In this document: positions 6,142 to 59,123 of the stretch, one piece after another
Layout of the letters: the number at the start of each line of letters is the position of its first letter
How positions within the stretch are numbered: position 1 is the stretch's first letter
DNA from: SAR324 cluster bacterium
GTDB taxonomy: Bacteria > SAR324 > JACQKK01
Direction: 5' to 3'
Assembly (NCBI GenBank): GCA_022574555.1
Contig: JACZRV010000002.1
Coordinates: 21,995-85,994, forward strand
Length of the DNA stretch: 64,000 nt
Translations under genes and position numbers: made by a program
Notes under the pieces: model-generated
The model's database searches: none
What the model was told of the DNA's origin: nothing
What the model saw: only the letters and a program-made list of their open reading frames with translations

Positions 6142-6168
6142 TCAATTCCCGCCCGCCGGAGGACGACG

Positions 6169-8791: not shown

Positions 8792-9931
8792 TCAATCCAC
8801 GGCCAAAGCCCGTTCGAAAACTTCCAGATGTGCCGCCAGGAACCCTTCCCTGGAGAATCGGCGCCGTACCTGATTTCGGCCCTCGGCGCCCAGCCGACGG
8901 CGCAGGCCGGGGTGCGAGGCAAGGGTCGCCAGTTCCTCAGCCAATGCGGCGGCGTCGGGTGAAGCGGCGATGAGCCCGCTGACGCCGTGCCCGATCACTT
9001 CCGGCAGCGCGCCGGTGGGCAACGCCACGACAGGAGTTCCGGCCGACAGGAACTCTACCGCCACACGGCAGATCATCTCGGAGGCGATCGAGGGGATCAC
9101 TCCCATGTCCACGCCGCTCATTATTTGACCCACGTCCTTCCGGTAGCCGAGCCAGGTGACCCTGTCGCCGAGCTGCATCTCGGCGATCCGCCGTTCCAGA
9201 AGCGCGCGATGAGGGGCCTCGCTGGCATAGGCCTTGTTCAAGATGAGAAGATGGGGCTTGGGCAGGGACGGCGGAAGCATTCGCAGGGCTTCGAGAAGGG
9301 TGCCGTGGCCTTTTTCGGGCGCGATCCGGCCCACGACGCCCAGGAGCAGCGCCTCCTCGGGCAGACTCAGTTCTGCGAGCAGAGACTGGCGGGCCGATTG
9401 CCCCACCACCTCGGCAGGCATCGGGGAGGGTGCAGCCGGATAGTAGATGGTGCGGATGCGCTCGGGCGGGACCATGAGGCGGCTTTCCAGCCGCTGCCGG
9501 ATCACGTCGGCGCAAGCGATGACACCTTGGCACCCGCGGCCGTAAAGCCGTCGATTGAGCCAGCCCCTGCGCTCGGCCTGGGCGCCGCCGCGGGTACGAA
9601 CGACCTTCGGCCCGCCCCACCACCTGGCGGCGAACAGGTGCAGTGGAAATTCGGCGGAGCGGAAGACATTTACGACGTCGATCCGCTGCCGCTGCTGGAA
9701 CTCGGTCAGCCGCCTGATAGCGGAACGCCAGCGCCATGGGCTGGCGCCGTCAGGTAGCAATCCGGTGAGGGGAGCAAGGCCGCGCCGATGCAATTCTTGT
9801 GCGTTGCGGGTGCCGGGATGGACCAGCATCCAGACCCCGTGGCCCGCTTCCCGCAACAATTCGGCCAATATCGCCGCGTATTCCGCCTCGGCGTTCCAGT
9901 AGGGAAAGCCGGAACTGATCAGGACATTCAC
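8792..9931 (-). CDS. Glycosyltransferase family 4 (GT-B, RfaG-like).
   Basis: GT4 architecture (…GVVGRIAPEKG…, EFLSAGTPVVA). Its start overlaps the stop of the upstream giant ORF by 4 nt. Confidence 0.8.
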   Translation of the reverse strand: MNVLISSGFPYWNAEAEYAAILAELLREAGHGVWMLVHPGTRNAQELHRRGLAPLTGLLPDGASPWRWRSAIRRLTEFQQRQRIDVVNVFRSAEFPLHLFAARWWGGPKVVRTRGGAQAERRGWLNRRLYGRGCQGVIACADVIRQRLESRLMVPPERIRTIYYPAAPSPMPAEVVGQSARQSLLAELSLPEEALLLGVVGRIAPEKGHGTLLEALRMLPPSLPKPHLLILNKAYASEAPHRALLERRIAEMQLGDRVTWLGYRKDVGQIMSGVDMGVIPSIASEMICRVAVEFLSAGTPVVALPTGALPEVIGHGVSGLIAASPDAAALAEELATLASHPGLRRRLGAEGRNQVRRRFSREGFLAAHLEVFERALAVD

Positions 9932-12900: not shown

Positions 12901-14070
12901 GATTTTAAGTGAAGTGACTTCATACAGCGGCATGAAGTCGCGGGAGGGTTTCCACAGAAAGCTGATATGTCCTTCGAAGCAGTTGATGCGGATTGCCCGC
13001 ACCCGCTCCATGAGAATCTCTTCTTCCTCCCGTCCGGGCAGTTTTCGGTAGAACGCCTGAATTTGCGTCGTTGGAATCTCCCGGCCGAGTAGGCCTTTTT
13101 CCTTGAATTGTTCGGAGTAGACCTTTTCCTCGTCCACCCGCACGGCATGAAACGATTCGCCCCGCTCGCTGCCGAAGCGGATGGATTCGATGATGGATAA
13201 AGGCAGATCGACGGTAATCAGCCGATTCTTGAGCTTGGCGGAGACGTCCAGCTCGTCGATGTTGCCCACGCCAAATTGGTGGTACAGCCGTTTCAAGCTG
13301 GCAGGTGTAAAGCATTCGCTGCGGTTCTTGCCCAGGCGTATGCGCAATTGATCGAAGAAGAGTTCGGGGAAGGTAGGATATTTTGGAAGTTCCACCATCA
13401 CCCGGCTCAAATCATCCTGCGAGCGCAACGTGACGGTATCCCCGGATGCGTGAAAGCCCAGTTCGCAAGTCGTGCCTTCCTCGTCGAGCAGATCACCCAA
13501 CAGGGCACGCATCCTGGGAAGCTCTCCGTGCAACAACAATGGGCAGTCCGGATAGCGCCGTTTGATCTCCGGCAACCGGGTGACGACGGCGTGCACGAAT
13601 TGAAAATCTGAATGGAGCTCGATAAGCACGCCGTGCAGGGTTTCCTCGGAGCCCTCCAGCACGCGCTCGATCACCAGATCTGGTGCAAGCTGCCGCGAAC
13701 CCTCCATGATGGGCACGAACATGCGGCGCAGGGGCCGGCGCAGGTCGTCCGGGATGTGGTGGATGGAATACCCGCGGTTGGGATTGACTACGGCCAGCCG
13801 GCCAAAGTCGTACTTGGAAATCGGGGGCACCTTTCCCCGCCGGGCCAACACTTGGGCGTCACGGGCGATTTTCTCGTGCTGGGCCGATTCCAGAGGAATG
13901 AGATCGTAATCGATTTCCATTACCGATCCATTGACGGCGGGCCTGCCGCCTGTGCTCACGTGACCGGGGCGCCGGGGCGCCGATTTCCAAGTACGACTTT
14001 GGCCGCCGCCCGTGGGGATGGTGGCCGGGCCATCGGATTCAGGGACGGGTTTGGCCGCTCCCCCTGACAA
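9928..14070 (-). CDS. Very large (about 1330-1380 aa) uncharacterised cytoplasmic protein with no recognisable catalytic or NTPase motifs. The start is more likely the internal Met at 13920.
   Basis: Continuous 4.1 kb ORF between proA and GT4 with 4-nt and 32-nt overlaps. No Walker A and no TM segments. Charged, coiled-coil-like middle region. Codon usage matches its neighbours. Confidence 0.6.
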   Translation of the reverse strand: MSGGAAKPVPESDGPATIPTGGGQSRTWKSAPRRPGHVSTGGRPAVNGSVMEIDYDLIPLESAQHEKIARDAQVLARRGKVPPISKYDFGRLAVVNPNRGYSIHHIPDDLRRPLRRMFVPIMEGSRQLAPDLVIERVLEGSEETLHGVLIELHSDFQFVHAVVTRLPEIKRRYPDCPLLLHGELPRMRALLGDLLDEEGTTCELGFHASGDTVTLRSQDDLSRVMVELPKYPTFPELFFDQLRIRLGKNRSECFTPASLKRLYHQFGVGNIDELDVSAKLKNRLITVDLPLSIIESIRFGSERGESFHAVRVDEEKVYSEQFKEKGLLGREIPTTQIQAFYRKLPGREEEEILMERVRAIRINCFEGHISFLWKPSRDFMPLYEVTSLKIHGNGAPAASGAEREERHPLAFDAVVVTEVGRPRFGDVRAGIRRLFLSRVYEKILAKQAKLKGHAGQLKIACLGAMAAQTLILLKPFGLSRFIPSDKSYYLCDSIDQLPDYHDQANRLAERYELLTTVLRELFSGEGAGAFDPDQINHRLPFVLEWARGEPPPYDQLRAEHLETVYNELRVFIKFSESEFHRMDQTSFDHDAYFVKLFQCNEAAMLAKQIANLKSGAYGQFFAQDESPDFVFFANESDFERNRAEFHLPGMAWSEVLPHSEAETPSPDGDFAFSVFLAEQFSIVNYLWRQEYDEQPGMAYYERYFEDRIGEAKHELEDLRRIGDPEEAKNSPAYQEVHRRLKEEHHDDIAQFRHELDAQALILAGAEQKYFEALGVVNDALGEREMPAEALLGGEDYVETMDRMLAKRSVEILTELKGAIQKMVLLVNRDLHQRREKLKTYLQVFQRMHRAYIPLLAARHRRQAIVRAEAGLIPLIERLNDLAKVSDDDATQAIENLHARRGVLKEELGQTDDELQSLSSQSQRQVGEVRENLSRILSSITFPDRKEMGDSSSVRVLAGIEERLLQARDELAGIIRGARETEDSRTASMSRLYTRRLEIAGELYASENEVALLEMRGAQSRLQRMMGKKITEPLVSYIPPASLGEENQLEAGYRKGRTEWERVGEQLTAMSALEGYLQDVQTPVSHFQNMQKAYGAFRKAVREKRAKQKSVESISARVEQLTREAEDLPRVIEERFLPSYRIIAKKYLIPNIHERIASTNRALAFIRNAGNLSFENIQRDFLERAVNRRFQLAQFRSGAFYGQNPDHPLFAHLGNVLPAIYAFYRQVRFNLQQGGFEESSISLHKLAAANPEGILRLCDDLLREGGQRRHTYLVLPGTLSLHEALDIIQAKESLFNGIPQLILIFISKFDEGNIRDDAALRGRYFEAVKHNIIINLDSPGMVDNPGSIASRLVQETLGRSIDLDRLETAPESDSAKLPSEA

Positions 14071-17742: not shown

Positions 17743-19746
17743 GTGCAAAAACTGGAACAATTGATTTGGTCCGTCGCACTGCTGTCGTCCGTGGGCCTAC
17801 TGATGGTCTATGCCTATGTGCCGCAATGGCTTCCATGGGACACCAGCGCATTCGATATTTCCATGGACGGTGCGGTCTCCGACTGGCCCTTTTACGGGCG
17901 CGATGCGGGCGGCACCCGCTACTCGCCCCTGGATCAAATCAACCGCGAAAACGTCCTCTTCTTGGAGGAGGCTTGGACCTATCGCACGGGAGACTACGCC
18001 GACGGATCGGACGGCCGGCAAAAAACCACCTTCCAGGCCACACCGATCCTGGTCGACGGCACGCTTTATTTCAGCACTGTTTACGGACGAGTGATCGCGC
18101 TGGATCCGGAAAGCGGCGAAGCGCGTTGGACGTACGATCCGGGGATGGATCGTGACGTGAGCTTTTCCGACCTCGCGTCGCGGGGGGTTGCCACTTGGGT
18201 CGATGACCGGCGCCGCACCGGGGAGCCGTGCCGACGCAGAATATTCGTGGGCACCTACGATGCGCGGCTGATCGCTCTCGACGCGGCGGCGGGCGAGCCT
18301 TGCACCGACTTCGGCGTGGGGGGGCAGGTCGACTTGACCGTGGGCATTCGCAACGTAAGGCCAGGACACTACGGCGTTACTTCTCCGCCGGCCGTTATCG
18401 GCGATCTGGTCGTGGTGGGCTCGGCCATCGGTGACAATGGGGCGGTGGAGATGGCAGACGGCTCCGTCCGAGCCTACGACGCCCGCGATGGCACCCTGCG
18501 ATGGCGCTGGGAACCGGTGCCCCGGCACCCGGCCGACCCGGCCCGCGATACCTGGAAAGGAGATGCCGCTGACAAGACCGGGGCGGCCAACGCCTGGTCC
18601 ATCCTTTCCGTAGATGCCGCCCGGGACCTGGTTTTCGTGCCCACCAGTAGCGCCAGCCCCGATTTCTACGGCGGCGAGCGGTTGGGCAGCAACTCTTACG
18701 CGAATTCGGTGGTGGCGTTGCGCGGATCGACGGGCGAGGTCGTGTGGCACTACCAACTCGTGCACCACGATCTGTGGGATTACGACCTGCCCGCACAGCC
18801 GGTGTTGCTCGATGTCAAGAAGGACGGTGTGGAAATACCGGCGGTGGCCCAGGCCACCAAGATGGGATTTCTCTTCCTGCTCCACCGGGAGACGGGCCAG
18901 CCGATCTTTCCCGTCGAGGAGCGCCCGGTGCCCCAATCCACGGTGCCGGGGGAAGAGACTTGGCCCACCCAACCTTTTCCCACCCACCCTCCGCCGTTGG
19001 CACCCACCAGGCTGACCCCCGACGATGCGTGGGGGCTCACACCGTGGGACCGCGGGTGGTGCCGGGATAAATTGGAGCGGCACCGCAACGAGGGTATCTT
19101 CACGCCGCCGAGCCTGGGGGGCAGCATCCAGTCACCCGGCATTGCCGGTGGGTCCAATTGGGGCGGACTGGCCTTCGAACCCAACCGAGGCGTGGTCGTG
19201 CTCAACATGACTCACATGCCCTATGTGGTGCAATTGATTCCCATCGAGGACTTCGAGGCCGAGCGGGCCCAGGCGCCCAAGGACACCGAATTCGCTCCGC
19301 AAGCGGGCACGCCCTACGGCATGAGCCGCGCGCCTCTGCTTTCGCCCCTGGGTCTGCCTTGCATCCAGCCGCCGTGGGGTACCCTGGCCGCGGTGGATTT
19401 GGGGAGTGGAGAAGTGAAATGGGAGGTGCCCCTGGGCACGATACGGGATATCGCCCCGGTGCCGCTGCCCATCGAATGGGGAACACCGAGTTTGGGCGGC
19501 CCCATCGTGACCGCGGGGGGGCTGATCTTCATCGGCGCAGCCATGGACGACTACCTGCGGGCCTTCGATATCGAAACGGGGGAGGAGCTATGGAAAGCCC
19601 GCCTCCCGGCCGGCGGTCAGGCCACACCGATGACCTACCGGCTCACGCCTTCCAGCCGCCAATTCGTGGTGATCGCTGCCGGCGGGCACGGCAGGCTGGG
19701 CACCACCATCGGCGATCATCTCGTGGCCTTCGCCCTGCCGGAGTGA
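17743..19746 (+). CDS. Membrane-anchored PQQ-dependent dehydrogenase (glucose/quinate dehydrogenase family).
   Basis: N-terminal TM helix. PQQ beta-propeller repeats (W-motifs). Similar to the periplasmic domain of quinoprotein glucose dehydrogenase. Confidence 0.8.
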   Translation: MQKLEQLIWSVALLSSVGLLMVYAYVPQWLPWDTSAFDISMDGAVSDWPFYGRDAGGTRYSPLDQINRENVLFLEEAWTYRTGDYADGSDGRQKTTFQATPILVDGTLYFSTVYGRVIALDPESGEARWTYDPGMDRDVSFSDLASRGVATWVDDRRRTGEPCRRRIFVGTYDARLIALDAAAGEPCTDFGVGGQVDLTVGIRNVRPGHYGVTSPPAVIGDLVVVGSAIGDNGAVEMADGSVRAYDARDGTLRWRWEPVPRHPADPARDTWKGDAADKTGAANAWSILSVDAARDLVFVPTSSASPDFYGGERLGSNSYANSVVALRGSTGEVVWHYQLVHHDLWDYDLPAQPVLLDVKKDGVEIPAVAQATKMGFLFLLHRETGQPIFPVEERPVPQSTVPGEETWPTQPFPTHPPPLAPTRLTPDDAWGLTPWDRGWCRDKLERHRNEGIFTPPSLGGSIQSPGIAGGSNWGGLAFEPNRGVVVLNMTHMPYVVQLIPIEDFEAERAQAPKDTEFAPQAGTPYGMSRAPLLSPLGLPCIQPPWGTLAAVDLGSGEVKWEVPLGTIRDIAPVPLPIEWGTPSLGGPIVTAGGLIFIGAAMDDYLRAFDIETGEELWKARLPAGGQATPMTYRLTPSSRQFVVIAAGGHGRLGTTIGDHLVAFALPE

Positions 19747-19768: not shown

Positions 19769-19838
19769 CCGTGCCGACAGTACCGTGCCGACAGTACCGT
19801 GCGAATAGTACCGTGCGAATAGTACCGTGCGGCCATGC
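19769..19838. repeat. Tandem 14-bp repeat, about 5 units of (ccgtgccgacagta)/(ccgtgcgaatagta), between the PQQ-dehydrogenase gene and glyA.
   Basis: Direct inspection: ccgtgccgacagta x2, ccgtgcgaatagta x2, then a partial unit. Confidence 0.8.
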
Positions 19839-20027
19839 CCTGCGGCCAATACCATGCGAACTGAGCCGGTGCCCGTCGTGCGGTTACGCCGCCGCCCGCG
19901 CCCAATGATTCTTGCATTCGGACGAATATGCGCCATGATGGACGGGCCGCCGCGCGGGCGCACGTGGAGAGGCGCCCCAGGCAGCCGCCCTATCGATTGC
20001 AACCGCCGCCTACGGAGAATTCCAAAT

Positions 20028-21332
20028 ATGAAATACGACGCCCTGCCGGCTACCGATCCGGAAGTCTTCGATATCCTGTCGGGAGAGGCCACCCGTGAAT
20101 CCGAAGGATTGGAGTTGATCCCCTCGGAAAACTACGCTTCCCAGGCCGTGTTGGAGGCGTTGGGCACGCTGATGACCAACAAGTACTCCGAGGGAACTCC
20201 CGGCAGGCGCTATTACGGGGGTCAGACCTACACCGACCAGATCGAATCGTTGGCCATCGAACGGGCCAAGGCACTTTTCGGCTGCGATCACGCAAATGTC
20301 CAGCCCCTTTCCGGCGCGGCGGCCAACCTGGTGGTCTTCTCGTCGTGGCTGGAAATCGGCGATACGGTGCTGGCCATGGATCTATCGCACGGAGGCCATC
20401 TGACCCACGGCGCACCCGTGACCTTCGCCGCCAAGGCCTACAATTTCATCCGTTATAAGATGAAGGATGTGGCCACGGGCGCCATCGACTACGATGATCT
20501 GGAAGCGCTGGCCCTGGAGCACCGGCCCAAGATCATCCTGGCCGGCTTCTCCGCCTATCCGCGGGAGCTGGACTATGGCCGTTTCGCCCGCATCGCGGAA
20601 AAGGTGGGCGCGATGGCCATGGCCGACATGGCCCACATCGCCGGGCTGATCGCCGGTAAGGTGCTGGCCAACCCGTTCGACCACGGCTTTCACGTGATGA
20701 CCACCACCACCCACAAAAGTCTGCGCGGCCCGCGGGGGGCCATGGTGCTCAGCCAGGGCAAGGTGGGCAACCCCTTGCGGGCTCCCGGGAAAACCCTGGA
20801 GAACCTGCCCACCCTCATCGACCGGGCCGTCTTTCCGGGGCTGCAAGGCGGGCCACACATGAACAAGATCATGGCCATCGCCGTCGCGCTGCGCGAGGCG
20901 GCCACGCCGCAGTTCGCCGATTATTCCCGCCAAATTCTGCGCAACGCCAAGGTGTTGGCGGAAACCCTCATGGAGCGGGGCTGCCAACTGATCACCAACG
21001 GCACGGACAATCACCTGATGCTGATCGATACGATGGGTTCTTTCGGCAAGACCGGCAAGGAGATGCAGGAACGGTTGGAAGCGGTGGGCATCACCCTCAA
21101 CAAGAACGCCATACCCGACGATCCCCTGCCTCCCTTCAAAGCCTCCGGCGTTCGCCTGGGTACACCTGCCCTCACCTCGCGCGGACTGTTGGAGCCGCAC
21201 ATGGAGCGCATCGCTGCGTGGATCGCCCAGGTGGGCAAGGGGGAAGGCGACCCCGACGCCATCCGCCGTGAAGTGCGCGATCTGTGCCTGGCCCACCCCA
21301 TCCCCAGCGGGCCGGTGGAGCGGGGTAATTGA
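20028..21332 (+). CDS. glyA: Serine hydroxymethyltransferase.
   Basis: MKYDALPATDPEVFD…LIPSENY…; the PLP-lysine region TTTHKSLRGPRG; about 434 aa. The upstream GTG at 19827 is probably not the true start. Confidence 0.95.
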   Translation: MKYDALPATDPEVFDILSGEATRESEGLELIPSENYASQAVLEALGTLMTNKYSEGTPGRRYYGGQTYTDQIESLAIERAKALFGCDHANVQPLSGAAANLVVFSSWLEIGDTVLAMDLSHGGHLTHGAPVTFAAKAYNFIRYKMKDVATGAIDYDDLEALALEHRPKIILAGFSAYPRELDYGRFARIAEKVGAMAMADMAHIAGLIAGKVLANPFDHGFHVMTTTTHKSLRGPRGAMVLSQGKVGNPLRAPGKTLENLPTLIDRAVFPGLQGGPHMNKIMAIAVALREAATPQFADYSRQILRNAKVLAETLMERGCQLITNGTDNHLMLIDTMGSFGKTGKEMQERLEAVGITLNKNAIPDDPLPPFKASGVRLGTPALTSRGLLEPHMERIAAWIAQVGKGEGDPDAIRREVRDLCLAHPIPSGPVERGN

Positions 21333-21419: not shown

Positions 21420-23063
21420 CTAATCCCGGCCGCTGCGCCGTACACGCAGCAGGTAGTGGAAGTCCAGGTATCCGCCGGCATCCCAATTCAAATAGCCGTG
21501 CCGGTCCGCGACTTCCAGATAGAACGCGTCGCCGGTCAGGCTGTGGGTAAATTTCTTCGCGTTGCCGAGGTGGATCGTCTTCTTCAGGAACCCCCCTTGG
21601 TCGTAGATGCGTATCACTGGCTGCAGGTTGGTGCGGCCCAGCCGGTACCATTCGATTTCGATCTCCTCACCGGGTTGCAACACATCGCCGAGAAAGATAT
21701 CCGCGTCGCCCCGGGAATCGACGTGACCGTAGATCATCGCGCCGAAACCGATGGGATTGGCCCGGTCGAACCTGCCGTTGTCTTCCAGTTCGGCGAAGGT
21801 GGGGCCCCAATCCTCCAGTTCTGGGTGGGCGGCGATCAAATCCTCGAACAGCCCCGCCACCATCGGTGTGCGCAGGGGCGGCGGGAAGGGCACCATCTCA
21901 TGGTTTTCCAGGTTGGGTCGCCGATGAACGCGCATCTCGAGCGTATCGTTGTGCCAATAGACCCGGCGCACCTGAAATGCGCCGAACTCCCTCCCGCTCA
22001 ATTCCGCTTCCAGTGATGCGCGATCTCCCGGGTAGACACCTTCGTAGGTGACCCATTTATCGGCGAGGCGGGAGAGCACGAATCCCTCGAACAGGCTGTT
22101 CGGGCGAAAGAAGTCGCGTTCGAACGTCTCCTCATCGTAGAGCGAGTGCAACCCCAGCACCCGCAGACGCAAGATTTCGCCCCCGGCGCTCCAGGCCTCG
22201 GGTTCCCCGATGCGGCCCGGTTGCATCTGCGCCAGGGCGGGTTCGATCACGCTCCGCATCACCGCTTCCACCAGCGCGGAAGTGACGGGCGACAGGGGCG
22301 GCAGGGGATCGCGTGCGGGTTGTTCGATAGAAGCCAGCAGCGCCCCTGTGCGCACCAGATAAAAAGCAGCGCTCAGGACCGTCCGTGACTCCTGATCGTC
22401 GTCCGTGGGCGTTCGGGTCGCCAAAACCAACACCGCCGGCGCGCCGGGGGCGATCCGCGCCAGCAACGCTCGCCGGGCCATGCGGCCGGTGAAGGGGCTG
22501 GCCAAAAGCGAAACGTCGCGCGCCTCGATCGCAGATTGCGCCGCCACGTCGAAATTCAAAAGTGCCAGCCTTTCCGTCAAGGCGGCAAACGCCGCCTCGC
22601 GCACGGAAGCCGAGGCCAGCAGCGGGTCGTTGCGGGGATACAGAATAGCCAGCCGCCGTTTGCGATCCCCCAGGATAGGCAGGGAGAGTTCCCTCAGATC
22701 GGCCACGAGCGCGGGCCGATCGACCTGGGCTTCCAATGCGGCGTAGTATTGCGTGCGGTCCAGGGATGTTTCGAGCTTGCGAATCCGGTAGGAACTGATG
22801 TACCGGTCCAGCCGGGAGAGGATGCGCCGTTTGAGATCGCCCCGATATAGTTGGAGCCATTCGGCAGCGACCAGCGACCGGAGCGCTTCGCGTACGACGG
22901 CCTCCTGGGCCAGCCGCACGGCGCGCAGCCGGGCGTCGTCGAGATCGTCCTCGAAGATGGGAACCCGTGCCTCTCCGTTGCGCGTGATCAGCCGTTCCTG
23001 GGCCGTGAGGGCGCCCCCCAGGAGCAAAACGGCCAACGACAGTATCAGTACGGGTTTCCTCAT
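21420..23063 (-). CDS. Secreted hypothetical protein, 547 aa.
   Basis: Signal peptide MRKPVLILSLAVLLLGGALTAQE. No recognisable domain. Last gene of a three-gene secreted-protein cluster. Confidence 0.6.
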   Translation of the reverse strand: MRKPVLILSLAVLLLGGALTAQERLITRNGEARVPIFEDDLDDARLRAVRLAQEAVVREALRSLVAAEWLQLYRGDLKRRILSRLDRYISSYRIRKLETSLDRTQYYAALEAQVDRPALVADLRELSLPILGDRKRRLAILYPRNDPLLASASVREAAFAALTERLALLNFDVAAQSAIEARDVSLLASPFTGRMARRALLARIAPGAPAVLVLATRTPTDDDQESRTVLSAAFYLVRTGALLASIEQPARDPLPPLSPVTSALVEAVMRSVIEPALAQMQPGRIGEPEAWSAGGEILRLRVLGLHSLYDEETFERDFFRPNSLFEGFVLSRLADKWVTYEGVYPGDRASLEAELSGREFGAFQVRRVYWHNDTLEMRVHRRPNLENHEMVPFPPPLRTPMVAGLFEDLIAAHPELEDWGPTFAELEDNGRFDRANPIGFGAMIYGHVDSRGDADIFLGDVLQPGEEIEIEWYRLGRTNLQPVIRIYDQGGFLKKTIHLGNAKKFTHSLTGDAFYLEVADRHGYLNWDAGGYLDFHYLLRVRRSGRD

Positions 23064-25883: not shown

Positions 25884-27596
25884 ATGGAAGACAAACTCCT
25901 CCGGGTCGACATGACGAATCTTTCCGTTGTGGAAGAGCCCTTCCCGGATGATTGGCGCTACCTGGGGGGCAGAGCCCTTTCGGCCAGGATTCTCCTGGAA
26001 GGCCAGGATCCGGCATGCGATCCCCTGGGTGCCGAAGCCTTGCTGGTGTTGGCGCCGGGGATCCTCAGCGGTTCGATGGCGCCCACCTCGGGCCGCATAT
26101 CCATCGGCGCGAAGAGCCCTCTTACGGGCCGCATCAAGGAAGCCAATTCCGGAGGTCAAGCGGGTCAGCACCTGATGCGGCTGGGCTATCGGGCCCTGAT
26201 TGTCCGAGGTAAGCCAACCGACCCGGACCAGCGCTGGGTATTGGAGATCGGCGAAGAAGGTGTGCACCTTATCGAAAAATCGGAGCTCAAGGGCATGCGC
26301 AATTATCCAGCGGCCGAGGCGTTGCTGCAAGGCAAGGACAAGCGCGCCTCAACGGTGATCTGCGGGCCCGCGGGCGAGATGGGTCTGACCGGGGCCACGA
26401 TCGCGCTGACCGATATGGATCATCGCTATCCCACCCGCCACGCGGCCCGCGGGGGGCTCGGTGCGGTGATGGGATCCAAGGGACTCAAGGCCATCACCAT
26501 CGATCCGGGCCGCGCCAAGTTTCGCCGGCCGGCCCGCGAACAGGCGTTCAAGACGCTCTTTCAGACCTTCGCCAAGGAATACCGGGCCGGCAAGCAGCCC
26601 CTGAAAAACGGCACCGCGACGGTCGTGCCCGTGGCCAATATGCTTTCCACCCTGCCCACCCGCAACCGCCGGGCCATGCAGTACGATAAACACGAGGGGC
26701 TGGACGGGGCCAAGATCCTGGCGAACTACGAGACCCGGGGGGGCAAGCAGCACGGATGCATGTCGGGCTGCATCGTCCAATGCTCCAACATTATCAACGA
26801 CCCGGATGGCCACTACATCACGTCGGCCCTGGAATTCGAGACCCTGGGCATGCTGGGCTCCAATTGCGATATCGGCGATCTGGATGTCGTGGCCCGCTTG
26901 GACCGGCTGTGCGACGATCTGGGTCTGGACACAATCGAAACCGGTGGCGCCATTGCCGTGGCCATGGAAGCCGGGGCGCTTTCCTTCGGTGACGCTGGCG
27001 CCATGATCGAATTGCTCGACAAAGAAATCGAAGCGGCCACGCCCTTGGGCCAAGCTGTGGGCAACGGCGTGGTCGCCACCTGCGAAGCCTACGGCGCCAT
27101 GAATCGGGTGCCCGCGATCGGCGGGCAGGGTATCCCGGCGTGGGAACCGCGGACGCTGCCGGTGACGGCCATCACGTATGCGACCAGCGCGATGGGTGCG
27201 GACCACACCGCCGGGCTGGTGACCCGCACCAAAAATCCCGACGCCGCCCAGGCTTCGCAGTTCGCCCAGGTGGTGAACATGGTTTGCGATTCATCGGGGT
27301 TCTGCCAGTTTCAAATTCTGCGTTTGGAAGACCTGCGCCAGTTTTACAACGCCATCTTCGGCGTTGATTGGGACGGCGCGGAGATCTATCATCACGGATT
27401 CGCCGCACTGCAGGACGAATGGGAATTCAACCGGCGCGCCGGCTTCACCCTCGACGATAGCGACCTCCCCGACTGGATGAGGGAGGAAAAAGTACCCAGT
27501 AACGACGCGGTGTATCAAGCCACCCGCGACGTATTGGAGCGCGTCTTTACGGAAAACTACGACGATTCAGCCCTCAAGATCCGCGCCAGCGGCTGA
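25884..27596 (+). CDS. Aldehyde:ferredoxin oxidoreductase family protein (tungsten/molybdopterin, AOR).
   Basis: AOR N-terminal domain (…LTGRIKEANSGGQAG…) and the C-terminal AFOR domain. About 570 aa. Confidence 0.8.
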   Translation: MEDKLLRVDMTNLSVVEEPFPDDWRYLGGRALSARILLEGQDPACDPLGAEALLVLAPGILSGSMAPTSGRISIGAKSPLTGRIKEANSGGQAGQHLMRLGYRALIVRGKPTDPDQRWVLEIGEEGVHLIEKSELKGMRNYPAAEALLQGKDKRASTVICGPAGEMGLTGATIALTDMDHRYPTRHAARGGLGAVMGSKGLKAITIDPGRAKFRRPAREQAFKTLFQTFAKEYRAGKQPLKNGTATVVPVANMLSTLPTRNRRAMQYDKHEGLDGAKILANYETRGGKQHGCMSGCIVQCSNIINDPDGHYITSALEFETLGMLGSNCDIGDLDVVARLDRLCDDLGLDTIETGGAIAVAMEAGALSFGDAGAMIELLDKEIEAATPLGQAVGNGVVATCEAYGAMNRVPAIGGQGIPAWEPRTLPVTAITYATSAMGADHTAGLVTRTKNPDAAQASQFAQVVNMVCDSSGFCQFQILRLEDLRQFYNAIFGVDWDGAEIYHHGFAALQDEWEFNRRAGFTLDDSDLPDWMREEKVPSNDAVYQATRDVLERVFTENYDDSALKIRASG

Positions 27597-48784: not shown

Positions 48785-51700
48785 ATGAATGAACGCGCTT
48801 TTTCACTCGAGGACAAGTATCGGGTAACCGAGGGACGGATCGCCATCACCGGCGTTCAGGCACTGGTACGAATTCCCATGGATCAGCGCCGCCGCGACGT
48901 GGCGGCGGGATTGAACACGGCCACCTACATCAGCGGATACCAGGGATCGCCCTTGGGCGAATTCGACAAGCAGATTCAGGCTGCCCGCGCTCTGCTCAAA
49001 GAACACCACGTGGTTTGGCAGCCGGGGATCAACGAGGAGATCGCGGCCACGTCGGTATACGGGACGCAGCTGCTGGATAGCTTCCCGGAGCCCAAGTACG
49101 ATGGCGTGCTGGGGATGTGGTACGGCAAGTCCCCGGGTGTGGACCGGACGATGGATGCGTTCAAGCACGGCAATTTCCTGGGCACGTCCAAGTACGGCGG
49201 GGCATTGGCCCTGGGTGGCGATGACCATGCCTGCAAGAGCTCCACGCTCCCCAACTCCAGCGATGTGGCGTTCTATGACGCCAATTTCCCGACGCTTTAT
49301 CCCGGCAATCCCCAGGAGGTATTGGAGTATGGGCTGCACGGGTTCGCCATGTCCCGTTACTCGGGACTGTGGGTAGCGATCAAGGTGGTGACCAACGTCG
49401 CCGACGGCGGCGGGATTATCGATGTCTATCCCGAGATGGCCCTCAGCGTGATACCCGAGCTTGAGATCAACGGCTGGCCGTTCGAGAAATCCCAGGACAT
49501 AGCCCTCATCCCCCCCAACAGCATCGAAACCGAGCGCCAGATACACTACGAGCGCATGCTGGCCGCCACGGCCTATGCCCGTATCAACGGCTTGAATCGC
49601 ATCGTCGTGCAGAGCGGCAGCGACCGCATCGGATTGATTTCCGCCGGAAAGGCCTATTACGACCTGGTGCAGGCTCTGGAAATGCTGGGGCTGGGCGAAG
49701 AGGACCTGCGGCAGGCCGGGATCCGGCTGTTCAAGATGGGAATGATCAGCCCCATCGAGACCGGCACCCTGGTGGAATTTGCCGACGGGCTGGAGGAAAT
49801 CATCGTGGTGGAGGAAAAGCGCGGCTTCATGGAGACCCTGATTCGCAGCGCGCTCTACAATCATCCCCGGCGGCCCTCGGTCTATGGCAAGTTCGACAAG
49901 CATGATCGAACCCTGTTCCCCATCCATAGCGAGCTCCAGGTGGACCAGATCGCCCGCATCCTGGCCCATTACTTCGCCGAAAAGCTGGGGCGCGTGGACC
50001 TGGTGGAACGGGCCAAGTGGCTCTTCGACATCGATGAGCGCAAATACGAGGAAGTAGAAGGACGCACGCCTTATTTTTGCAGCGGCTGTCCTCACAATAC
50101 CTCCACCAATCTGCCCGAAGGCGCCATAGCCGGAGGCGGCATCGGATGCCATGCCATGGCCATCTGGATGGATCGCGGGATCGCCTACTTTACGCAGATG
50201 GGCGGGGAGGGGGCGCCCTGGATGGGGCTCTTCCCGTTTACCCAAAAAGACCATTTCTTCCAGAACATCGGCGACGGCACCTATAGTCATTCCGGCAGTA
50301 AATCCCTCGAAGCCTGCATCGCCTCGGGGGTCAATATGACCTTCAAGATCCTATACAACTCGTCGTCGGCTATGACCGGCGGTCAAGCGGTGGTGGGCCA
50401 GCTTTCCACGACCGATCTGGCCCACAAGCTGGTGCGTGAAGGGGTCACCGAGGTGGTGATCGTGCCGGAGGACATGGGCCGCTATTCCCGAAAAAAGATC
50501 GGCGAAAAGATTCGGGTGGCGCCCAAGAGCGGCTACAACAAGGTCATGCTGGAAATGCAGAAGGTCAAGGGAGTCAGCATCATCATCTTCGATCAGCAAT
50601 GCGCGGCGGAAAAACGCCGGCAGCGCAAGCGGGGAATCCTGGAGACCCCGCCCCAACGGGTCTATATCAATGAAGCCGTCTGCGAGGGGTGTGGCGATTG
50701 CGGCGTTAAATCCAATTGCCTGTCGGTCATGCCCTTCGAAACCGGGTACGGCCGTAAGACCCGCATCCACCAAAGCTCGTGCAACATGGACTACTCGTGC
50801 CTGAAGGGCGACTGTCCCGCCTTCATGACGGTCGAGTTGGGCCATGGAACGCGCATAGGGACGAAGGAGGGGTTTGCCTCGCCCCTGGGGGCCGACCTGC
50901 CCGAGCCGGCAACGAAAGCCGATTGCAAGGTGCCCTACACGATCATGCTGGTGGGCATCGGCGGCACGGGGGTGCTGACCGTCGATGCGCTGCTGGTCAC
51001 CGCCGCGCTGATCGATGGAAAGTATGCGCTGCATCTGGACCAAACCGGCCTGGCGCAAAAGGGCGGCCCGGTGCTTTCCAATTTCATCATCAGCGATGAA
51101 CCTCTGAACCGTGCCAACAAGATTGCGGCTGGAGAGACCGACACCCTGCTGGCCTTCGATTTTCTCGCGGCGGTATCCCAGGACAACCTGAACCGGTACC
51201 ATCCCGACCGCACGCGGGCCGTGATCAATTCGGCGACCAGCCCCACGGGGAACACGGTGCGGAATATTCATGCCCAACTGCCCGCCTTGGAGTTTATGCA
51301 GAAGAGGATCGGTGCCTATCTGCGGCCCGATGGGAACACGACGGTGCCGGTGGAAAGGATCGTTGACGGGCTGTTCGGCAACAGTCTGTCCGGCAACGTC
51401 TTCATGGTGGGTCTGGCCTACCAGTCCGGCTTGATTCCCCTCGCCGCCCAATCCATTGAAGCTGCCATCGAGGCCAACGGCGTGGCCGTCAACCAGAACA
51501 TCCAGGCGTTTCGCTGGGGCCGCAAGTATCAGTTCGACCCACGGGCCGTGGATTCGTTGTCGAGTGGCGACTCGAAATCCGCCGATCCCCGCGCCGAGGC
51601 CCTGGCCAGACTGCGCGAATTCGCGCCGAACCGCGTTTCCGATTTTGAGAAACTCGCGGCCAAGATTCCAGGCGCGGAGGCCCTGGCGCAACTGCTCTAC

Positions 51701-52324
51701 CCACGGCTGGCCGATCTCATCCTCTACCAGAATCCGCAATATGCGGCGAAATACCTGGATTACGTGCTGGCCGTGGCCAGCGAGGAACGGCGCAACACAG
51801 CCGGCCGGACGGGACTGGCCGAAGCGGTGGCCCGCTGGTATTTCAAGCTGCTCGCTTACAAGGACGAATACGAGGTGGCCCGGCTTTGGGTTCAGCACGC
51901 CGCGTGGCGCGACGCCAAGGCTGCCTACGAGGGTCCCCTCAAACGGTATTACCAGCTTCATCCACCCATCCTGCGGGCTATGGGAATGAACCGGAAAATC
52001 AAGCTGGGCGAATGGTTCACGCCTGTGCTGAAGGGTCTGGCGAGCCTGAAATTTCTCCGGGGCACGGCACTGGACCCGTTCGGCTACGCCAAAGCCCGGC
52101 GCGAAGAGCGCAGACTCATCGGCTGGTACCGCGACATGGTCGATTCGCTGCTGCCGGCGTTGAACCACGAAAATCACGCTCTTGCCGTCGAGATCGCCTC
52201 CCTGCCGGACAACATCCGCGGCTATGAGTCGGTCAAGGAACGAATGATCGCGGAGACGGAAGAAGAGGCGGAACGGTTGCAAGAGGCCTATCGCAATCCG
52301 CAACAGACTCGCATGGCGATCTGA
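48785..52324 (+). CDS. Indolepyruvate:ferredoxin oxidoreductase, fused alpha-beta form (2-oxoacid:ferredoxin oxidoreductase family).
   Basis: 1179 aa. N-terminal …GVQALVRIP…GYQGSPLG, TPP-binding GDGTYSHSG, and ferredoxin-like CEGCGDCGVKSNC…C…C motifs. Confidence 0.9.
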   Translation: MNERAFSLEDKYRVTEGRIAITGVQALVRIPMDQRRRDVAAGLNTATYISGYQGSPLGEFDKQIQAARALLKEHHVVWQPGINEEIAATSVYGTQLLDSFPEPKYDGVLGMWYGKSPGVDRTMDAFKHGNFLGTSKYGGALALGGDDHACKSSTLPNSSDVAFYDANFPTLYPGNPQEVLEYGLHGFAMSRYSGLWVAIKVVTNVADGGGIIDVYPEMALSVIPELEINGWPFEKSQDIALIPPNSIETERQIHYERMLAATAYARINGLNRIVVQSGSDRIGLISAGKAYYDLVQALEMLGLGEEDLRQAGIRLFKMGMISPIETGTLVEFADGLEEIIVVEEKRGFMETLIRSALYNHPRRPSVYGKFDKHDRTLFPIHSELQVDQIARILAHYFAEKLGRVDLVERAKWLFDIDERKYEEVEGRTPYFCSGCPHNTSTNLPEGAIAGGGIGCHAMAIWMDRGIAYFTQMGGEGAPWMGLFPFTQKDHFFQNIGDGTYSHSGSKSLEACIASGVNMTFKILYNSSSAMTGGQAVVGQLSTTDLAHKLVREGVTEVVIVPEDMGRYSRKKIGEKIRVAPKSGYNKVMLEMQKVKGVSIIIFDQQCAAEKRRQRKRGILETPPQRVYINEAVCEGCGDCGVKSNCLSVMPFETGYGRKTRIHQSSCNMDYSCLKGDCPAFMTVELGHGTRIGTKEGFASPLGADLPEPATKADCKVPYTIMLVGIGGTGVLTVDALLVTAALIDGKYALHLDQTGLAQKGGPVLSNFIISDEPLNRANKIAAGETDTLLAFDFLAAVSQDNLNRYHPDRTRAVINSATSPTGNTVRNIHAQLPALEFMQKRIGAYLRPDGNTTVPVERIVDGLFGNSLSGNVFMVGLAYQSGLIPLAAQSIEAAIEANGVAVNQNIQAFRWGRKYQFDPRAVDSLSSGDSKSADPRAEALARLREFAPNRVSDFEKLAAKIPGAEALAQLLYPRLADLILYQNPQYAAKYLDYVLAVASEERRNTAGRTGLAEAVARWYFKLLAYKDEYEVARLWVQHAAWRDAKAAYEGPLKRYYQLHPPILRAMGMNRKIKLGEWFTPVLKGLASLKFLRGTALDPFGYAKARREERRLIGWYRDMVDSLLPALNHENHALAVEIASLPDNIRGYESVKERMIAETEEEAERLQEAYRNPQQTRMAI

Positions 52325-57450: not shown

Positions 57451-57885
57451 ATGAGTGAAGTCACCACCACAGATGGCAGCCGTGCCCTGCGCCGGCTGGC
57501 CCAGAGAGTGGAGACCGTCGCCACCGGCGGTTTCAAGATCACCTATCTCCCCATGAAACTGACCGTCGAGGCCGGACCGCCCGACCTCGACGCTCACCAC
57601 GAAGGGCAGCCCGGATCCCTGCTCGACATTGCGCTGAAAAACGATATCGAGATCGATCACTCCTGCGGGGGCTTCACGGCCTGTTCCACCTGCCACGTTA
57701 TCGTGCGGGAAGGACTGGAATCTTGCAACGAGACTACGGAGGATGAGGACGACATGCTCGACGAGGCGCCGGGATTGACTCTCAATTCCCGCCTGGCCTG
57801 CCAATGCGTCCCCGATGGCTCGGTCGACATCGTGGTGGAAATCCCCGCCTGGAATCGCAACCTGGCCAAGGAAAGCTCCCACTGA
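57451..57885 (+). CDS. fdx: [2Fe-2S] ferredoxin (adrenodoxin/ISC Fdx-like).
   Basis: Cys ligands in HSCGGFTACSTCHV … LACQC. Confidence 0.8.
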   Translation: MSEVTTTDGSRALRRLAQRVETVATGGFKITYLPMKLTVEAGPPDLDAHHEGQPGSLLDIALKNDIEIDHSCGGFTACSTCHVIVREGLESCNETTEDEDDMLDEAPGLTLNSRLACQCVPDGSVDIVVEIPAWNRNLAKESSH

Positions 57886-58110
57886 ACGCACGAAGGCCAT
57901 TCGCTTGCGCCCAACACGCGGGCGCAATCCGGATTCAGTTTGAGCGAATGTGGGCGGACGTTCAGGGCCACAGCATGTGGGAATCGCCTTGGCCCTGGCT
58001 AATCTCGCCAGGCCGGCATGCCAGTCGGCATGACCCCGTCATCTGCGATTGCCAGCGCGCCAATGCGCGCGATGACGAGGCCCCCTCGCATCGGAGAGGG
58101 ATCAGTCCGC

Positions 58111-58923
58111 TTACGGCTTCCGCGCAGTAAAGTTGATCCCCACGGTGCCGAAAGCCTCCGCGTTCGAGCTTTGGGGCGCCCCGGCGAACACCTCGGCTTT
58201 CCAGGTAATCGCGAAATCCTCGAACCCAGCGGCTTTGACCACGGCTGCAAGCTCTGCTTCCAGCAGAGCGCCCGCGATTCACCCGGTCCAGAGATCGATC
58301 TTTTGCTTGGCCGATTCGGGAACCTGCCTGTTCACCATGATGTCGGCCATCTGAAAACGGCCCCCCGGCTTGAGCATGCGAAATATTTCTTTGTAGGCGC
58401 CCAGCTTGTTGGGGCAAAGGTTGACCACGCCATTGGAAATAACCACATCGGCCCAGCCGTCGCCGACGGGTGTTTCCTCCAGGTAGCCCATCTTGAATTC
58501 CAAATGCGGAATTTGCATCTTCCCTTGCCACATGCGGGCTTTATCCAGCATTTCATCGGTCATGTCGATTCCGATCACGGCGCCCGCTGGGCCGACCTGA
58601 TGGGCCGCGATGAAACTATCGATACCGGCACCGCAGCCCAGGTCGACAACCCTTTCCCCCGGTTGCAGCAACCCGATGCTGAACGGATTGCCCGTGCCCG
58701 CGAACGACTCCACGACGCCCTCGGGGATGCCTTCCAGCCACTCGTCCTGATATTCGACGATCTTCGCCAAAGCCCGGCCGGTGTGGAAGTGAAAACCCTT
58801 GTTGGGATTCGCTGCGACTTCCCGATACTCCTTCTTGATCGCGGATCTCAGAGTTTCCTGGTCCAACCCTTCGGGAACTTTTACCGCTTCCATGATTTGC
58901 CTCCTCACCGATGGTGATCTCAC
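58111..58923 (-). CDS. ArsM-like SAM-dependent methyltransferase (arsenite methyltransferase family) with an in-frame TGA at 58279-58281 read as selenocysteine.
   Basis: Class I MTase motif VVDLGCGAGID. The sequence …QKIDLWTG-TGA-IAGALLEAELAAVVKAAGFEDFAITWK… aligns with the ArsM/AS3MT LWGEC(L/I)GGAL motif, with Sec in place of the conserved catalytic Cys. The frame continues 55 codons to TAA at 58111. Hairpin GCTCTGC-TGGAA-GCAGAGC starts 9 nt after the UGA. Confidence 0.7.
58251..58269 (-). promoter_or_regulatory. Candidate SECIS-like hairpin for the ArsM-like selenoprotein.
   Basis: Minus strand gcucugc-uggaa-gcagagc: a 7-bp perfect stem with a UGGAA loop, 9 nt after the UGA. Confidence 0.5.
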
Positions 58924-59123
58924 GTCTTATGCGCGGCCCAGGGGCCGGACGCACAGCACATAATATACCTGCATTTTATTCAATCTGCCACGGATGGATG
59001 GCATTGGGCGGCAGGATCAGTTTTTCCGGTCCTGCACTCGAAAAACGAAACGCAAACCGGACCAAACTTCACTCACCGCGCAGACCTTGTTGTCCACCAG
59101 CCCCTCCGCCAGTCCGATGGCCC

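What the first reader, a model, noticed from the sequence alone, without database searches (positions are those of the whole stretch)
58111..58923. ArsM-like methyltransferase with selenocysteine replacing the conserved catalytic cysteine (LWTG-U-IAGAL), plus a textbook SECIS hairpin
The annotated minus-strand ORF stops at a TGA (58279-58281) in the middle of what should be an arsenite-methyltransferase-type domain. Reading through gives U-IAGALLEAELAAVVKAAGFEDFAITWKAEVFAGAPQSSNAEAFGTVGINFTARKP, then TAA at 58111. The junction DLWTG-U-IAGAL aligns with the LWGEC(L/I)GGAL motif that carries the essential As(III)-binding Cys of ArsM/AS3MT. A perfect 7-bp stem with a UGGAA loop begins 9 nt after the UGA. 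The N-terminal Cys pair of canonical ArsM is absent here (SFAGTGNP instead of YGCGSP). The substrate may therefore not be arsenite. A Sec-dependent methyltransferase for a metalloid or chalcogen substrate would be an unusual enzyme.
Basis: partly seen in the sequence, partly recalled or inferred. Interest (0 to 1): 0.85.

Follow-up and report, generated by a model that had tools for sequence, protein, structure and literature searches.

The report
Selenocysteine ArsM-like methyltransferase, truncated in annotation
The apparent stop codon in the middle of this SAR324 methyltransferase gene almost certainly encodes selenocysteine, but this kind of selenoprotein has been catalogued since 2007, so it is a correctly spotted, mis-annotated member of a known family rather than a new kind of enzyme.

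Summary
A minus-strand ORF (ATG 58893) meets TGA at 58279-58281. The frame continues for 55 codons to TAA 58111-58113. A 7-bp hairpin with a UGGAA loop starts 9 nt after the UGA. Comparative evidence shows the UGA is recoded. All 84 close relatives examined, from about ten phyla, have TGA at this codon, none has a stop in the next 53 codons, and the coding signature is the same before and after the TGA. The hairpin codons are fixed at synonymous sites in TGA forms but not in Cys forms that encode the same peptide. Full-length homologues have Cys at this position (LWTG-C-IAGALLE), which aligns with the As(III)-binding Cys224 of CmArsM. This is already known. "Arsenite methyltransferase" with a UxxG Sec motif is listed in selenoproteome catalogues (2007, 2008, 2016, 2026), and NCBIfam holds three related Sec fusion models. 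It lacks three of the four ArsM cysteines, carries an invariant FHFHTGR motif, fails NCBI's arsenite-methyltransferase cut-off, is sometimes fused to TusA, and often sits beside rhodanese, DsrE or TusA genes. Its substrate is therefore unproven and may not be arsenite. GenBank annotates this gene as a truncated 204-aa protein.

The parts
58111..58893 (-). Complete selenoprotein gene: ATG 58893-58891, Sec codon TGA 58281-58279 (residue 205), stop TAA 58113-58111; 260-aa ArsM-like SAM-dependent methyltransferase of the FHFHTGR subfamily
   Evidence: sequence, translation; Pfam Methyltransf_31/11/25; NCBIfam; PDB ArsM hits; GenBank MCH8841473.1 is the 204-aa truncated call
58279..58281 (-). UGA codon read as selenocysteine (U205); aligns with Cys of LWTG-C-IAGALLE in Cys homologues and with CmArsM C224
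   Evidence: TGA at this codon in 84 of 84 close relatives
58251..58269 (-). SECIS hairpin: 5' arm GCUCUGC 58269-58263, loop UGGAA 58262-58258 (the U-A can close it to a GGA triloop), 3' arm GCAGAGC 58257-58251; the loop starts 16 nt after the UGA
   Evidence: fixed synonymous codons in Sec forms but not in Cys forms; RNAalifold consensus with 98.3% of cells paired and compensatory changes at one pair; bSECIS criteria
58270..58278 (-). 9-nt spacer AUCGCGGGC between the UGA and the SECIS stem (codons Ile-Ala-Gly)
   Evidence: same spacing in all 84 TGA forms
58114..58278 (-). Read-through segment of 55 codons. It encodes the last helix and the last two beta-strands of the methyltransferase fold and ends ...INFTARKP, like short canonical bacterial ArsMs (...AFIRARKP)
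   Evidence: coding signature and 0 of 84 with a stop; AlphaFold secondary structure of Cys homologue P0008
58774..58794 (-). Invariant FHFHTGR motif (residues 34-40), occupying the region where canonical ArsM has its N-terminal Cys (C44 region)
   Evidence: FHFHTG in 82 of 84 Sec forms
58414..58416 (-). Cys160 codon (TGC) in NLCPNK, five residues after the position of ArsM C174 (which is Gly here); present in one clade of 25 Sec forms including this one; a possible partner thiol for Sec205
58900..58906 (-). Shine-Dalgarno-like GAGGAGG, 6 nt before the ATG
   Evidence: read directly
58962..58991 (-). Sigma-70-like promoter match (GTGGCA-18-TATATT), about 70 nt upstream of the ATG; a consensus match only

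Best explanation
This is a genuine selenoprotein gene of a SAR324 bacterium.

Translation (inferred from comparative evidence and the established bacterial mechanism): the hairpin 58269-58251, 9 nt after UGA 58281-58279, acts as a bacterial SECIS. SelB carrying Sec-tRNA(Sec) binds it and inserts selenocysteine at residue 205. This gives a 260-aa protein, not the annotated 204-aa fragment.

Protein (shown): a class I SAM-dependent methyltransferase whose closest structurally characterised relatives are the arsenite methyltransferases ArsM/AS3MT. It belongs to a distinct sister subfamily, called FHFH-type here. This subfamily keeps only one of the four ArsM cysteines, the C224 position, and that position is Sec or Cys.

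Chemistry (inferred by homology): in ArsM, C224 holds the substrate atom next to the SAM methyl group. Sec205 is therefore most likely the residue that covalently binds or activates a soft metalloid or chalcogen substrate for methyl transfer. Cys160 (NLCP) is a possible second ligand in this clade.

Substrate (not established): my split is about 35% a sulfur or selenium species handed over by TusA/DsrE/rhodanese-type carriers, about 30% arsenite or methylarsenite, and the rest something else.
For: Recoding:
- 84 of 84 relatives from SAR324, Acidobacteriota, Gemmatimonadota, Chloroflexota, Actinomycetota, Eisenbacteria, Nitrospinota, Myxococcota, Desulfuromonadales and Betaproteobacteria have TGA at this codon.
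- None has a stop in the next 53 codons. Divergence per codon position is 0.17/0.18/0.50 after the TGA and 0.23/0.17/0.54 before it. The tail is 74% identical to the window's, against 64% for the segment before the TGA.
- Cys homologues read LWTG-C-IAGALLE.

SECIS:
- In Sec forms the stem codons are fixed: Ala GCT 76/76, Leu CTG 73/76, Ala GCA 70/76, Glu GAG 76/76. Cys forms encoding the same IAGALLE peptide use GCG 16, GCT 9, GCC 2 and so on. Mean hairpin energy is -13.0 (Sec) vs -5.6 kcal/mol (Cys).
- RNAalifold recovers the stem. 98.3% of cells are paired, against 30-51% when partners are slid. One pair shows GC to CG, UA and UG changes that also alter an amino acid.
- The geometry fits the published bSECIS model.

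Fold:
- The AlphaFold model of a 65%-identical Cys homologue has pLDDT 91.9. A helix and two beta-strands lie after the Cys/Sec position.
- The top 13 PDB fold matches are all ArsM/AS3MT.

Subfamily:
- C72 is Thr in 80 of 84 Sec forms, C174 is Gly in 82 of 84, and FHFHTG is present in 82 of 84.
- NF008823 scores are 211-236 bits, against 340-342 for canonical ArsMs (cut-off 263).
- TusA fusions occur.
- Rhodanese, DsrE, TusA or rhodanese-metallo-beta-lactamase neighbours are present in 17 of 82 Sec loci.
Against: - No SelA, SelB, SelD or tRNA-Sec lies in the 64-kb window, and the rest of the genome could not be reached. The only outside hint is that two SAR324 single-cell genomes were reported to carry SelD (PMC5029168).
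- There is no experimental evidence of Sec insertion for this gene.
- The window's own locus has no sulfur-trafficking or ars neighbours. It lies after zwf-pgl-gnd and opposite a ferredoxin, so context says nothing about its substrate.
- The sulfur-gene association holds for only about a fifth of loci.
Confidence: 0.85

Rival explanations
1. It is a true arsenite (or methylarsenite) methyltransferase, as the literature label 'arsenite methyltransferase selenoprotein' implies. Sec205 together with Cys160 would replace the C174/C224 pair.
For: The closest solved structures are ArsM/AS3MT. The motif around the Sec (LWTG-U-IAGALLE) is almost letter-for-letter that of canonical bacterial ArsMs (WTG-C-IAGALLE), and the C-terminal ...RARKP is shared. 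JGI labels many members arsenite methyltransferase. In this clade a Cys lies five residues after the C174 position. Catalogues file the family under PRK11873/NF008823 (PMC13188914, PMC2398784).
Against: Three of the four defining cysteines are absent across the subfamily, and 37 of 84 Sec forms have neither the NLCP Cys nor a tail Cys, leaving one Sec as the only candidate ligand. The field's working definition needs at least 3 of 4 cysteines (PMC5552862). All tested members fall below NCBI's curated cut-off. Plain ArsR neighbours accompany the canonical ArsMs, not the FHFH type (9 of 28 Cys-form loci, all of them canonical four-cysteine ArsMs, vs 4 of 82 Sec loci). No ars genes lie near the window gene.
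Confidence: 0.3
2. It methylates a chalcogen species, such as sulfane sulfur/persulfide, sulfide, selenide or a selenium adduct, that is tethered to Sec205 and delivered by TusA/DsrE/rhodanese-type carriers. It would be part of reactive sulfur or selenium handling.
For: Many Cys forms and at least one Sec form (L071) carry a C-terminal TusA fusion. Recurrent neighbours are ArsR-HTH fused to rhodanese (12 loci), rhodanese-metallo-beta-lactamase (8), DsrE (8), TusA (4) and OsmC (10). P0011 sits in a TusA-DsrE-MTase-DUF3179 cluster with an HTH-rhodanese gene. A single nucleophilic Sec/Cys suits persulfide or selenosulfide chemistry better than three-thiol As(III) chelation.
Against: The association covers only 17 of 82 Sec loci and is absent from the window. 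No member has been characterised. No such activity is known for ArsM relatives, and a literature search found nothing. The role of the invariant His-x-His is unexplained.
Confidence: 0.35
3. His35, His37 and Sec205 form a metal site (as Sec ligates Ni, Mo or W in other selenoenzymes) that activates a thiol-like substrate, by analogy with zinc-dependent thiol methyltransferases.
For: FHFHTGR is invariant and replaces the N-terminal Cys region that closes over the active site in ArsM.
Against: This is pure inference. No distances could be measured, there are no metal data, and no fourth ligand has been identified.
Confidence: 0.1
4. The TGA is a real stop: either a natural 204-aa short form or a pseudogene, with the hairpin arising by chance from the GALLEAEL codons.
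For: GenBank and most gene callers annotate 204 aa. The single-sequence fold z-score is unremarkable. No Sec machinery is in the window.
Against: 84 of 84 relatives keep TGA followed by an open, codon-patterned and more conserved tail. Synonymous sites in the stem are fixed only in TGA forms. The truncated product would lack two core beta-strands. The tail is homologous to the end of ArsM.
Confidence: 0.03

Closest known systems
'Arsenite (S-adenosyl)methyltransferase' selenoprotein family of the selenoproteome catalogues (Fomenko et al. 2007 Science 315:387; Zhang & Gladyshev 2008, PMC2398784; Peng et al. 2016, PMC5029168; Zhang et al. 2026, PMC13188914 Table 1, motif UxxG)
   Same: Sec lies in a UxxG motif (U-I-A-G here) at the Cys that corresponds to mouse AS3MT C207. 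The domain resembles PRK11873/NF008823. The family is bacterial, has many Cys homologues, and was found in marine metagenomes.
   Different: I could not retrieve the catalogue's representative (WP_011987699.1), so I cannot say whether it is FHFH-type or a four-cysteine ArsM. The window protein scores below the NF008823 cut-off (221.6 vs 263).
Canonical ArsM/AS3MT (CmArsM 4fr0/6cx6, CrArsM 5evj, human AS3MT 8xt7; short bacterial ArsMs such as L087 and L100)
   Same: Same fold (TM 0.62-0.74). Same SAM motifs. Near-identical WTG-[C/U]-IAGALLE motif and ...RARKP C-terminus.
   Different: The C44 region is FHFHTGR, C72 is Thr and C174 is Gly. There are no ars-operon neighbours. The C-terminal domain of the eukaryotic enzymes is absent. 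None of the top 120 canonical-ArsM homologues is truncated at this codon, against 47 of 120 for the FHFH-type query.
NCBIfam selenoprotein fusion models NF041537 (ArsM/AhpD, UU), NF041536 (ArsM/DUF2284, UU) and NF047649 (methyltransferase/UXPK-star) (Haft & Tolstoy 2025, cited in PMC13188914)
   Same: These are the best NCBIfam matches over the methyltransferase domain (209-231 bits), with the same UxxG Sec. FHFH-type proteins match them better than canonical ArsMs do. The Cys-bearing C-terminal tail seen in 22 relatives resembles the U-x-P-K tail.
   Different: The window protein is a single-domain, single-Sec protein ending ARKP-stop, far below the models' cut-offs (460-575 bits). No standalone model appears to cover it.
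E. coli fdhF-type bacterial SECIS and the bSECIS consensus model
   Same: A hairpin inside the coding sequence just after the UGA, with a 7-bp upper stem, a loop fitting N1-G-G-N-N2, 16 nt from the UGA to the loop, and energy below -7.5 kcal/mol.
   Different: The sequence is unrelated to fdhF, there is no bulged U, and the spacing is at the short end of the allowed range. No Rfam family matches.

Membership tests
Bacterial selenoprotein gene | In-frame UGA at a position where homologues have Cys | tested here: met
   LWTG-U-IAGALLE vs LWTG-C-IAGALLE in full-length homologues
Bacterial selenoprotein gene | [quoted passage not shown] | tested here: met
   58251-58269(-): 7-bp stem, UGGAA loop, 16 nt spacing; mean -13.0 kcal/mol; conserved at synonymous sites and by compensatory change
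Bacterial selenoprotein gene | Sequence after the UGA evolves as coding sequence | tested here: met
   Codon-position divergence 0.17/0.18/0.50; 0 of 84 with a stop in 53 codons
Bacterial selenoprotein gene | Genome encodes SelA, SelB, SelD and tRNA-Sec | not testable with these tools
   None in the 64-kb window; the rest of the source contig and genome was not retrievable; SelD reported in two SAR324 single-cell genomes (PMC5029168)
Bacterial selenoprotein gene | Selenium demonstrated in the protein | not testable with these tools
   Needs 75Se labelling or mass spectrometry
Canonical arsenite methyltransferase ArsM/AS3MT | Class I SAM-dependent methyltransferase fold of the ArsM type | tested here: met
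   Pfam Methyltransf_31/11/25; Foldseek top 13 hits are ArsM/AS3MT
Canonical arsenite methyltransferase ArsM/AS3MT | At least 3 of the 4 conserved cysteines (CmArsM C44, C72, C174, C224; criterion of PMC5552862) | tested here: not met
   Only the C224 position is kept (as Sec); C72 is Thr, C174 is Gly, and the C44 region is FHFHTGR
Canonical arsenite methyltransferase ArsM/AS3MT | Reaches the curated NCBIfam NF008823 cut-off (263 bits) | tested here: not met
   221.6 bits for the window protein and 211-236 for seven other FHFH-type proteins; 340-342 for canonical ArsMs
Canonical arsenite methyltransferase ArsM/AS3MT | ars-type genomic context (ArsR, ArsC, Acr3/ArsB) | tested here: not met
   Neighbours are zwf-pgl-gnd and a 2Fe-2S ferredoxin; plain ArsR neighbours go with canonical ArsMs
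Canonical arsenite methyltransferase ArsM/AS3MT | Methylates As(III) | not testable with these tools
   Biochemical assay needed
'Arsenite methyltransferase' selenoprotein family of the catalogues | Sec in a UxxG motif within a PRK11873-like domain | tested here: met
   U-I-A-G; NF008823 E = 1.3e-65 over residues 12-236; motif as listed in PMC13188914 Table 1
'Arsenite methyltransferase' selenoprotein family of the catalogues | Same subfamily as the catalogue's representative WP_011987699.1 | not tested
   The accession could not be fetched with these tools
NCBIfam fusion selenoproteins (NF041537, NF041536, NF047649) | Second domain or tail carrying a second Sec; score above 460-575 bits | tested here: not met
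   The protein ends ARKP-TAA with no second TGA; scores 209-231 bits

The most novel reading that the evidence does not exclude
The widespread selenoprotein filed for two decades as 'arsenite methyltransferase' may in fact be a separate ArsM-like subfamily. It has a single Sec/Cys, an invariant His-x-His, and optional TusA or Cys-tail appendages. Under this reading it does not methylate arsenite but a sulfur or selenium species delivered by persulfide carriers, which would make it a selenium-dependent chalcogen methyltransferase.
Probability: 0.3. Interest if true: 0.6.

Novelty: new member of a known kind. Interest (0 to 1): 0.33.

Why it matters
- **Annotation:** this gene, and dozens of homologues in public databases, is recorded as a 204-aa fragment. 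In at least one assembly an orphan 43-aa ORF is also called for the tail. The invariant nucleotide string TGA-ATY-GCN-GGN-GCTCTGCTGGARGCAGAG is a simple marker that would fix these records.
- **Biology:** the subfamily is one of the more widespread bacterial selenoproteins, yet no member has a demonstrated substrate. It lacks the arsenic-binding cysteines and often travels with sulfur-carrier genes, so the 'arsenite' label may be misleading studies that count arsM genes in metagenomes.
- **Limits:** none of this makes the window's gene itself surprising to a selenoprotein specialist.

Tried and rejected
1. **Partner cysteine:** I thought the 'NLCP' Cys might co-vary with Sec as an obligatory partner. 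Rejected: TGA forms carry T, M, C, V, A, L, I or F at that position. It marks one clade only.
2. **Lower stem:** the longer lower stem in the window's own minimum-energy fold is not conserved. RNAalifold keeps only the 8-bp upper helix.
3. **Rfam:** no match in 57900-59000 even at E <= 10.
4. **tRNA-Sec nearby:** none next to the gene in 60 related loci, which is uninformative.
5. **Sec machinery and other selenoproteins in the window:** none found.
6. **Rest of the source contig (87 kb):** gnd is not on record, and the methyltransferase returned only a 2.8-kb contig.
7. **Model coordinates:** not exposed, so active-site distances could not be measured.
8. **Haft & Tolstoy 2025 (mSystems):** not in the held library, so its view of the fusion families is known only through the 2026 review.
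9. **Literature on ArsM-like, TusA or persulfide methylation:** nothing relevant found. BSepDB and the Olavius symbiont paper do not mention this family.
10. **Scope of the genome scan:** it used FHFH-specific peptide patterns, so '84 of 84 TGA' describes the nearest relatives, not the Sec/Cys ratio of the whole family.

Full report
**The observation.** On the minus strand an ORF runs from ATG 58893-58891 to TGA 58281-58279. A GAGGAGG lies 6 nt upstream of that ATG, and an alternative GTG lies at 58923. The same frame continues for 55 codons (IAGALLEAELAAVVKAAGFEDFAITWKAEVFAGAPQSSNAEAFGTVGINFTARKP) to TAA 58113-58111. Nine nucleotides after the UGA comes GCUCUGC-UGGAA-GCAGAGC (58269-58251). 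Folded alone, the region is not unusual for this G+C content (z = -0.78), so its significance has to come from comparison.

**What the protein is.** With Cys in place of the stop, the 260-aa product matches Pfam class I methyltransferase domains. Its best PDB relatives are the arsenite methyltransferases CrArsM and CmArsM (E = 5.5e-30 and 1e-27). In those alignments the stop falls on the Cys of ...GEC(L)(A/G)GAL, which is CmArsM C224, one of the As(III) ligands. The best NCBIfam matches are three curated selenoprotein 'exception' models (ArsM/AhpD, ArsM/DUF2284 and methyltransferase/UXPK-star) and the arsenite methyltransferase subfamily NF008823. All score below their cut-offs.

**Evidence that the UGA is read through.** A homology search returned two kinds of relatives. 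One kind is full length at about 260-290 aa (some about 360 aa with a TusA domain) and reads LWTG-C-IAGALLE. The other kind, 47 of the top 120, is exactly 203-215 aa and ends at LWTG. I fetched DNA for 80 representative genomes plus others.
- Every one of 84 such genes has TGA at that codon. They come from SAR324, Acidobacteriota, Gemmatimonadota, Chloroflexota, Actinomycetota, Eisenbacteria, Nitrospinota, Myxococcota, Desulfuromonadales and Betaproteobacteria.
- None has a stop in the following 53 codons.
- Pairwise divergence by codon position is 0.17/0.18/0.50 after the TGA and 0.23/0.17/0.54 before it.
- The tail is more conserved than the upstream segment (74% vs 64% identity to the window).
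- An AlphaFold model of a 65%-identical Cys homologue (pLDDT 91.9) places a helix and the last two beta-strands of the sheet after this residue. A 204-aa product would therefore be an incomplete fold.

**Evidence that the hairpin is a SECIS.**
- The stem is made from the codons for A-L-L-E-A-E. In Sec forms those codons are essentially fixed: GCT 76/76, CTG 73/76, CTG 73/76, GCA 70/76 and GAG 76/76.
- Among the 30 Cys forms, the 27 that encode the same IAGALLE peptide use GCG/GCT/GCC, CTG/CTC/TTG and so on. 25 of the 30 Cys forms have 2-5 of 7 pairs. Mean hairpin energy is -13.0 kcal/mol for Sec forms and -5.6 for Cys forms.
- 82 of 84 Sec forms have a perfect 7-bp stem in the same register.
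- RNAalifold on 53 distinct sequences recovers an 8-bp helix with a GGA triloop. 98.3% of cells are paired, against 30-51% when partners are slid. One pair changes from G-C to C-G, U-A and U-G in three genomes, each time also changing an amino acid.
- The geometry fits the published bacterial SECIS model: 7-bp stem, loop U-G-G-A-A fitting N1-G-G-N-N2, and 16 nt from the UGA to the loop (PMC13188914).
- A few Cys forms (L088, L106, L096, L098, L102) retain 6-7 of 7 pairs, which look like fossil SECIS elements. A neighbour-joining tree needs at least nine Sec/Cys switches.

**What could not be shown.** The window has no tRNA genes and no SelA, SelB or SelD. The remainder of the source genome was out of reach. 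The source is a SAR324 MAG. GenBank MCH8841473.1 annotates the gene as a 204-aa 'methyltransferase domain-containing protein'. Two SAR324 single-cell genomes were reported to carry SelD (PMC5029168).

**Relation to what is known.** This is not a new kind of selenoprotein.
- 'Arsenite methyltransferase' (PRK11873/NF008823, motif UxxG) appears in the 'experimentally verified' block of the 2026 catalogue, citing Fomenko et al. 2007.
- The GOS survey lists 8 Sec and 245 Cys sequences for it.
- A 2016 genome survey ranks it 11th among bacterial selenoprotein families, with 39 organisms.
- Fomenko et al. used this Sec/Cys pair to point to mouse AS3MT C157 and C207 (PMC4211708).

**What is distinctive about the subfamily.**
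- All 84 Sec forms lack three of the four ArsM cysteines. FHFHTG is present in 82, C72 is Thr in 80 and C174 is Gly in 82.
- Canonical bacterial ArsMs recovered in the same scan have CC, GCGNP and SNC motifs as well as WTG-C-IAGALLE, and they sit beside ArsR.
- Canonical ArsMs score 340-342 bits against NF008823, whereas every FHFH-type protein scores 211-236 bits (cut-off 263). The FHFH type matches the methyltransferase part of the Sec fusion models better than canonical ArsMs do.
- None of the top 120 homologues of a canonical ArsM is truncated at this codon.
- The Sec forms fall into three classes: a Cys in NLCP (25 forms, including the window; one clade), a conserved Cys on a C-terminal tail ...EW..AL.C..P (22 forms), or neither (37 forms).

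**Context and likely function.** No neighbour is universal. Recurrent neighbours are an ArsR-type HTH fused to rhodanese (12 loci), an MFS transporter (14), rhodanese-metallo-beta-lactamase (8), DsrE (8), TusA (4), OsmC (10) and tandem paralogues (8). 17 of 82 Sec loci have at least one sulfur-carrier gene. TusA is also fused to many Cys forms and to one Sec form. The window's own gene lies after zwf-pgl-gnd and opposite a ferredoxin, probably with its own promoter, so local context says nothing about its substrate.

I conclude that Sec205 is the substrate-holding nucleophile of an ArsM-like methyltransferase whose substrate is unproven. A sulfur or selenium species seems slightly more likely than arsenite, but neither has been tested.

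**Verdict.** It is wrong about rarity. This is a new, mis-annotated member of a known selenoprotein family, with a worthwhile open question about what that family really methylates.

Noticed in passing
L084 5192-6801 (ENA ERZ26052130 ctg19865l); also L052: One genome carries a Sec copy and a Cys copy of this methyltransferase in tandem. L052 carries two Sec copies. Eight loci in all have tandem paralogues.
   Followed up: partly
L088, L106 (7 of 7 pairs); L096, L098, L102 (6 of 7 pairs): Some Cys-form genes still carry the SECIS-like hairpin after TGC/TGT. These look like recent Sec-to-Cys conversions that left a fossil SECIS.
   Followed up: partly
P0005, P0006 (JGI metagenome proteins): Both have Trp at the Sec position (LWTG-W-IAGALLE) and nest inside a Sec clade. 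Either TGA was translated with a different genetic code by the pipeline, or TGA mutated to TGG. The DNA was not checked.
   Followed up: no
C-termini of L051, L056, L057, L060, L064, L065, L080, L034, L072 and others: 22 Sec forms have a roughly 20-residue tail (D/E)EW..AL(N/S/A)C..P with a conserved Cys. This resembles the U-x-P-K tail that names NCBIfam NF047649. L071 is a Sec form fused to TusA.
   Followed up: partly
window 58111-58242 (-); L112 1056-1187: Gene callers annotate the end of the read-through segment as a separate 43-aa ORF starting at a GTG. This is an artefact of not recognising the Sec codon.
   Followed up: yes
window 17743-19746 (+): A full-length PQQ-dependent methanol/ethanol dehydrogenase-type propeller (Pfam PQQ, 814 bits) in a SAR324 genome, followed by SHMT (19827-21332).
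   Followed up: no
window 9928-14070 (-) and 21420-23063 (-): Large ORFs of 1380 aa and 547 aa with high GC3 and no Pfam match at E <= 1e-5 (the 547-aa ORF was also checked at E <= 1e-3).
   Followed up: no
window 4828-8292 (+): A multicopper oxidase (4828-6141), a 404-aa protein with no Pfam hit (6169-7383) and a plastocyanin/azurin-like protein (7480-8292) lie in a row.
   Followed up: no
window 25884-27596 (+) and 48785-52324 (+): An aldehyde:ferredoxin oxidoreductase (AFOR_N/AFOR_C) and a 1179-aa POR/TPP/DUF6537 protein (indolepyruvate-ferredoxin-oxidoreductase-like). Both are enzyme types typical of anaerobes, in the same window as the PQQ dehydrogenase.
   Followed up: no
window 57451-57885 (+): The 2Fe-2S ferredoxin convergent with the methyltransferase is called as 144 aa in most assemblies but as 110 aa in the GenBank record.
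   Followed up: no
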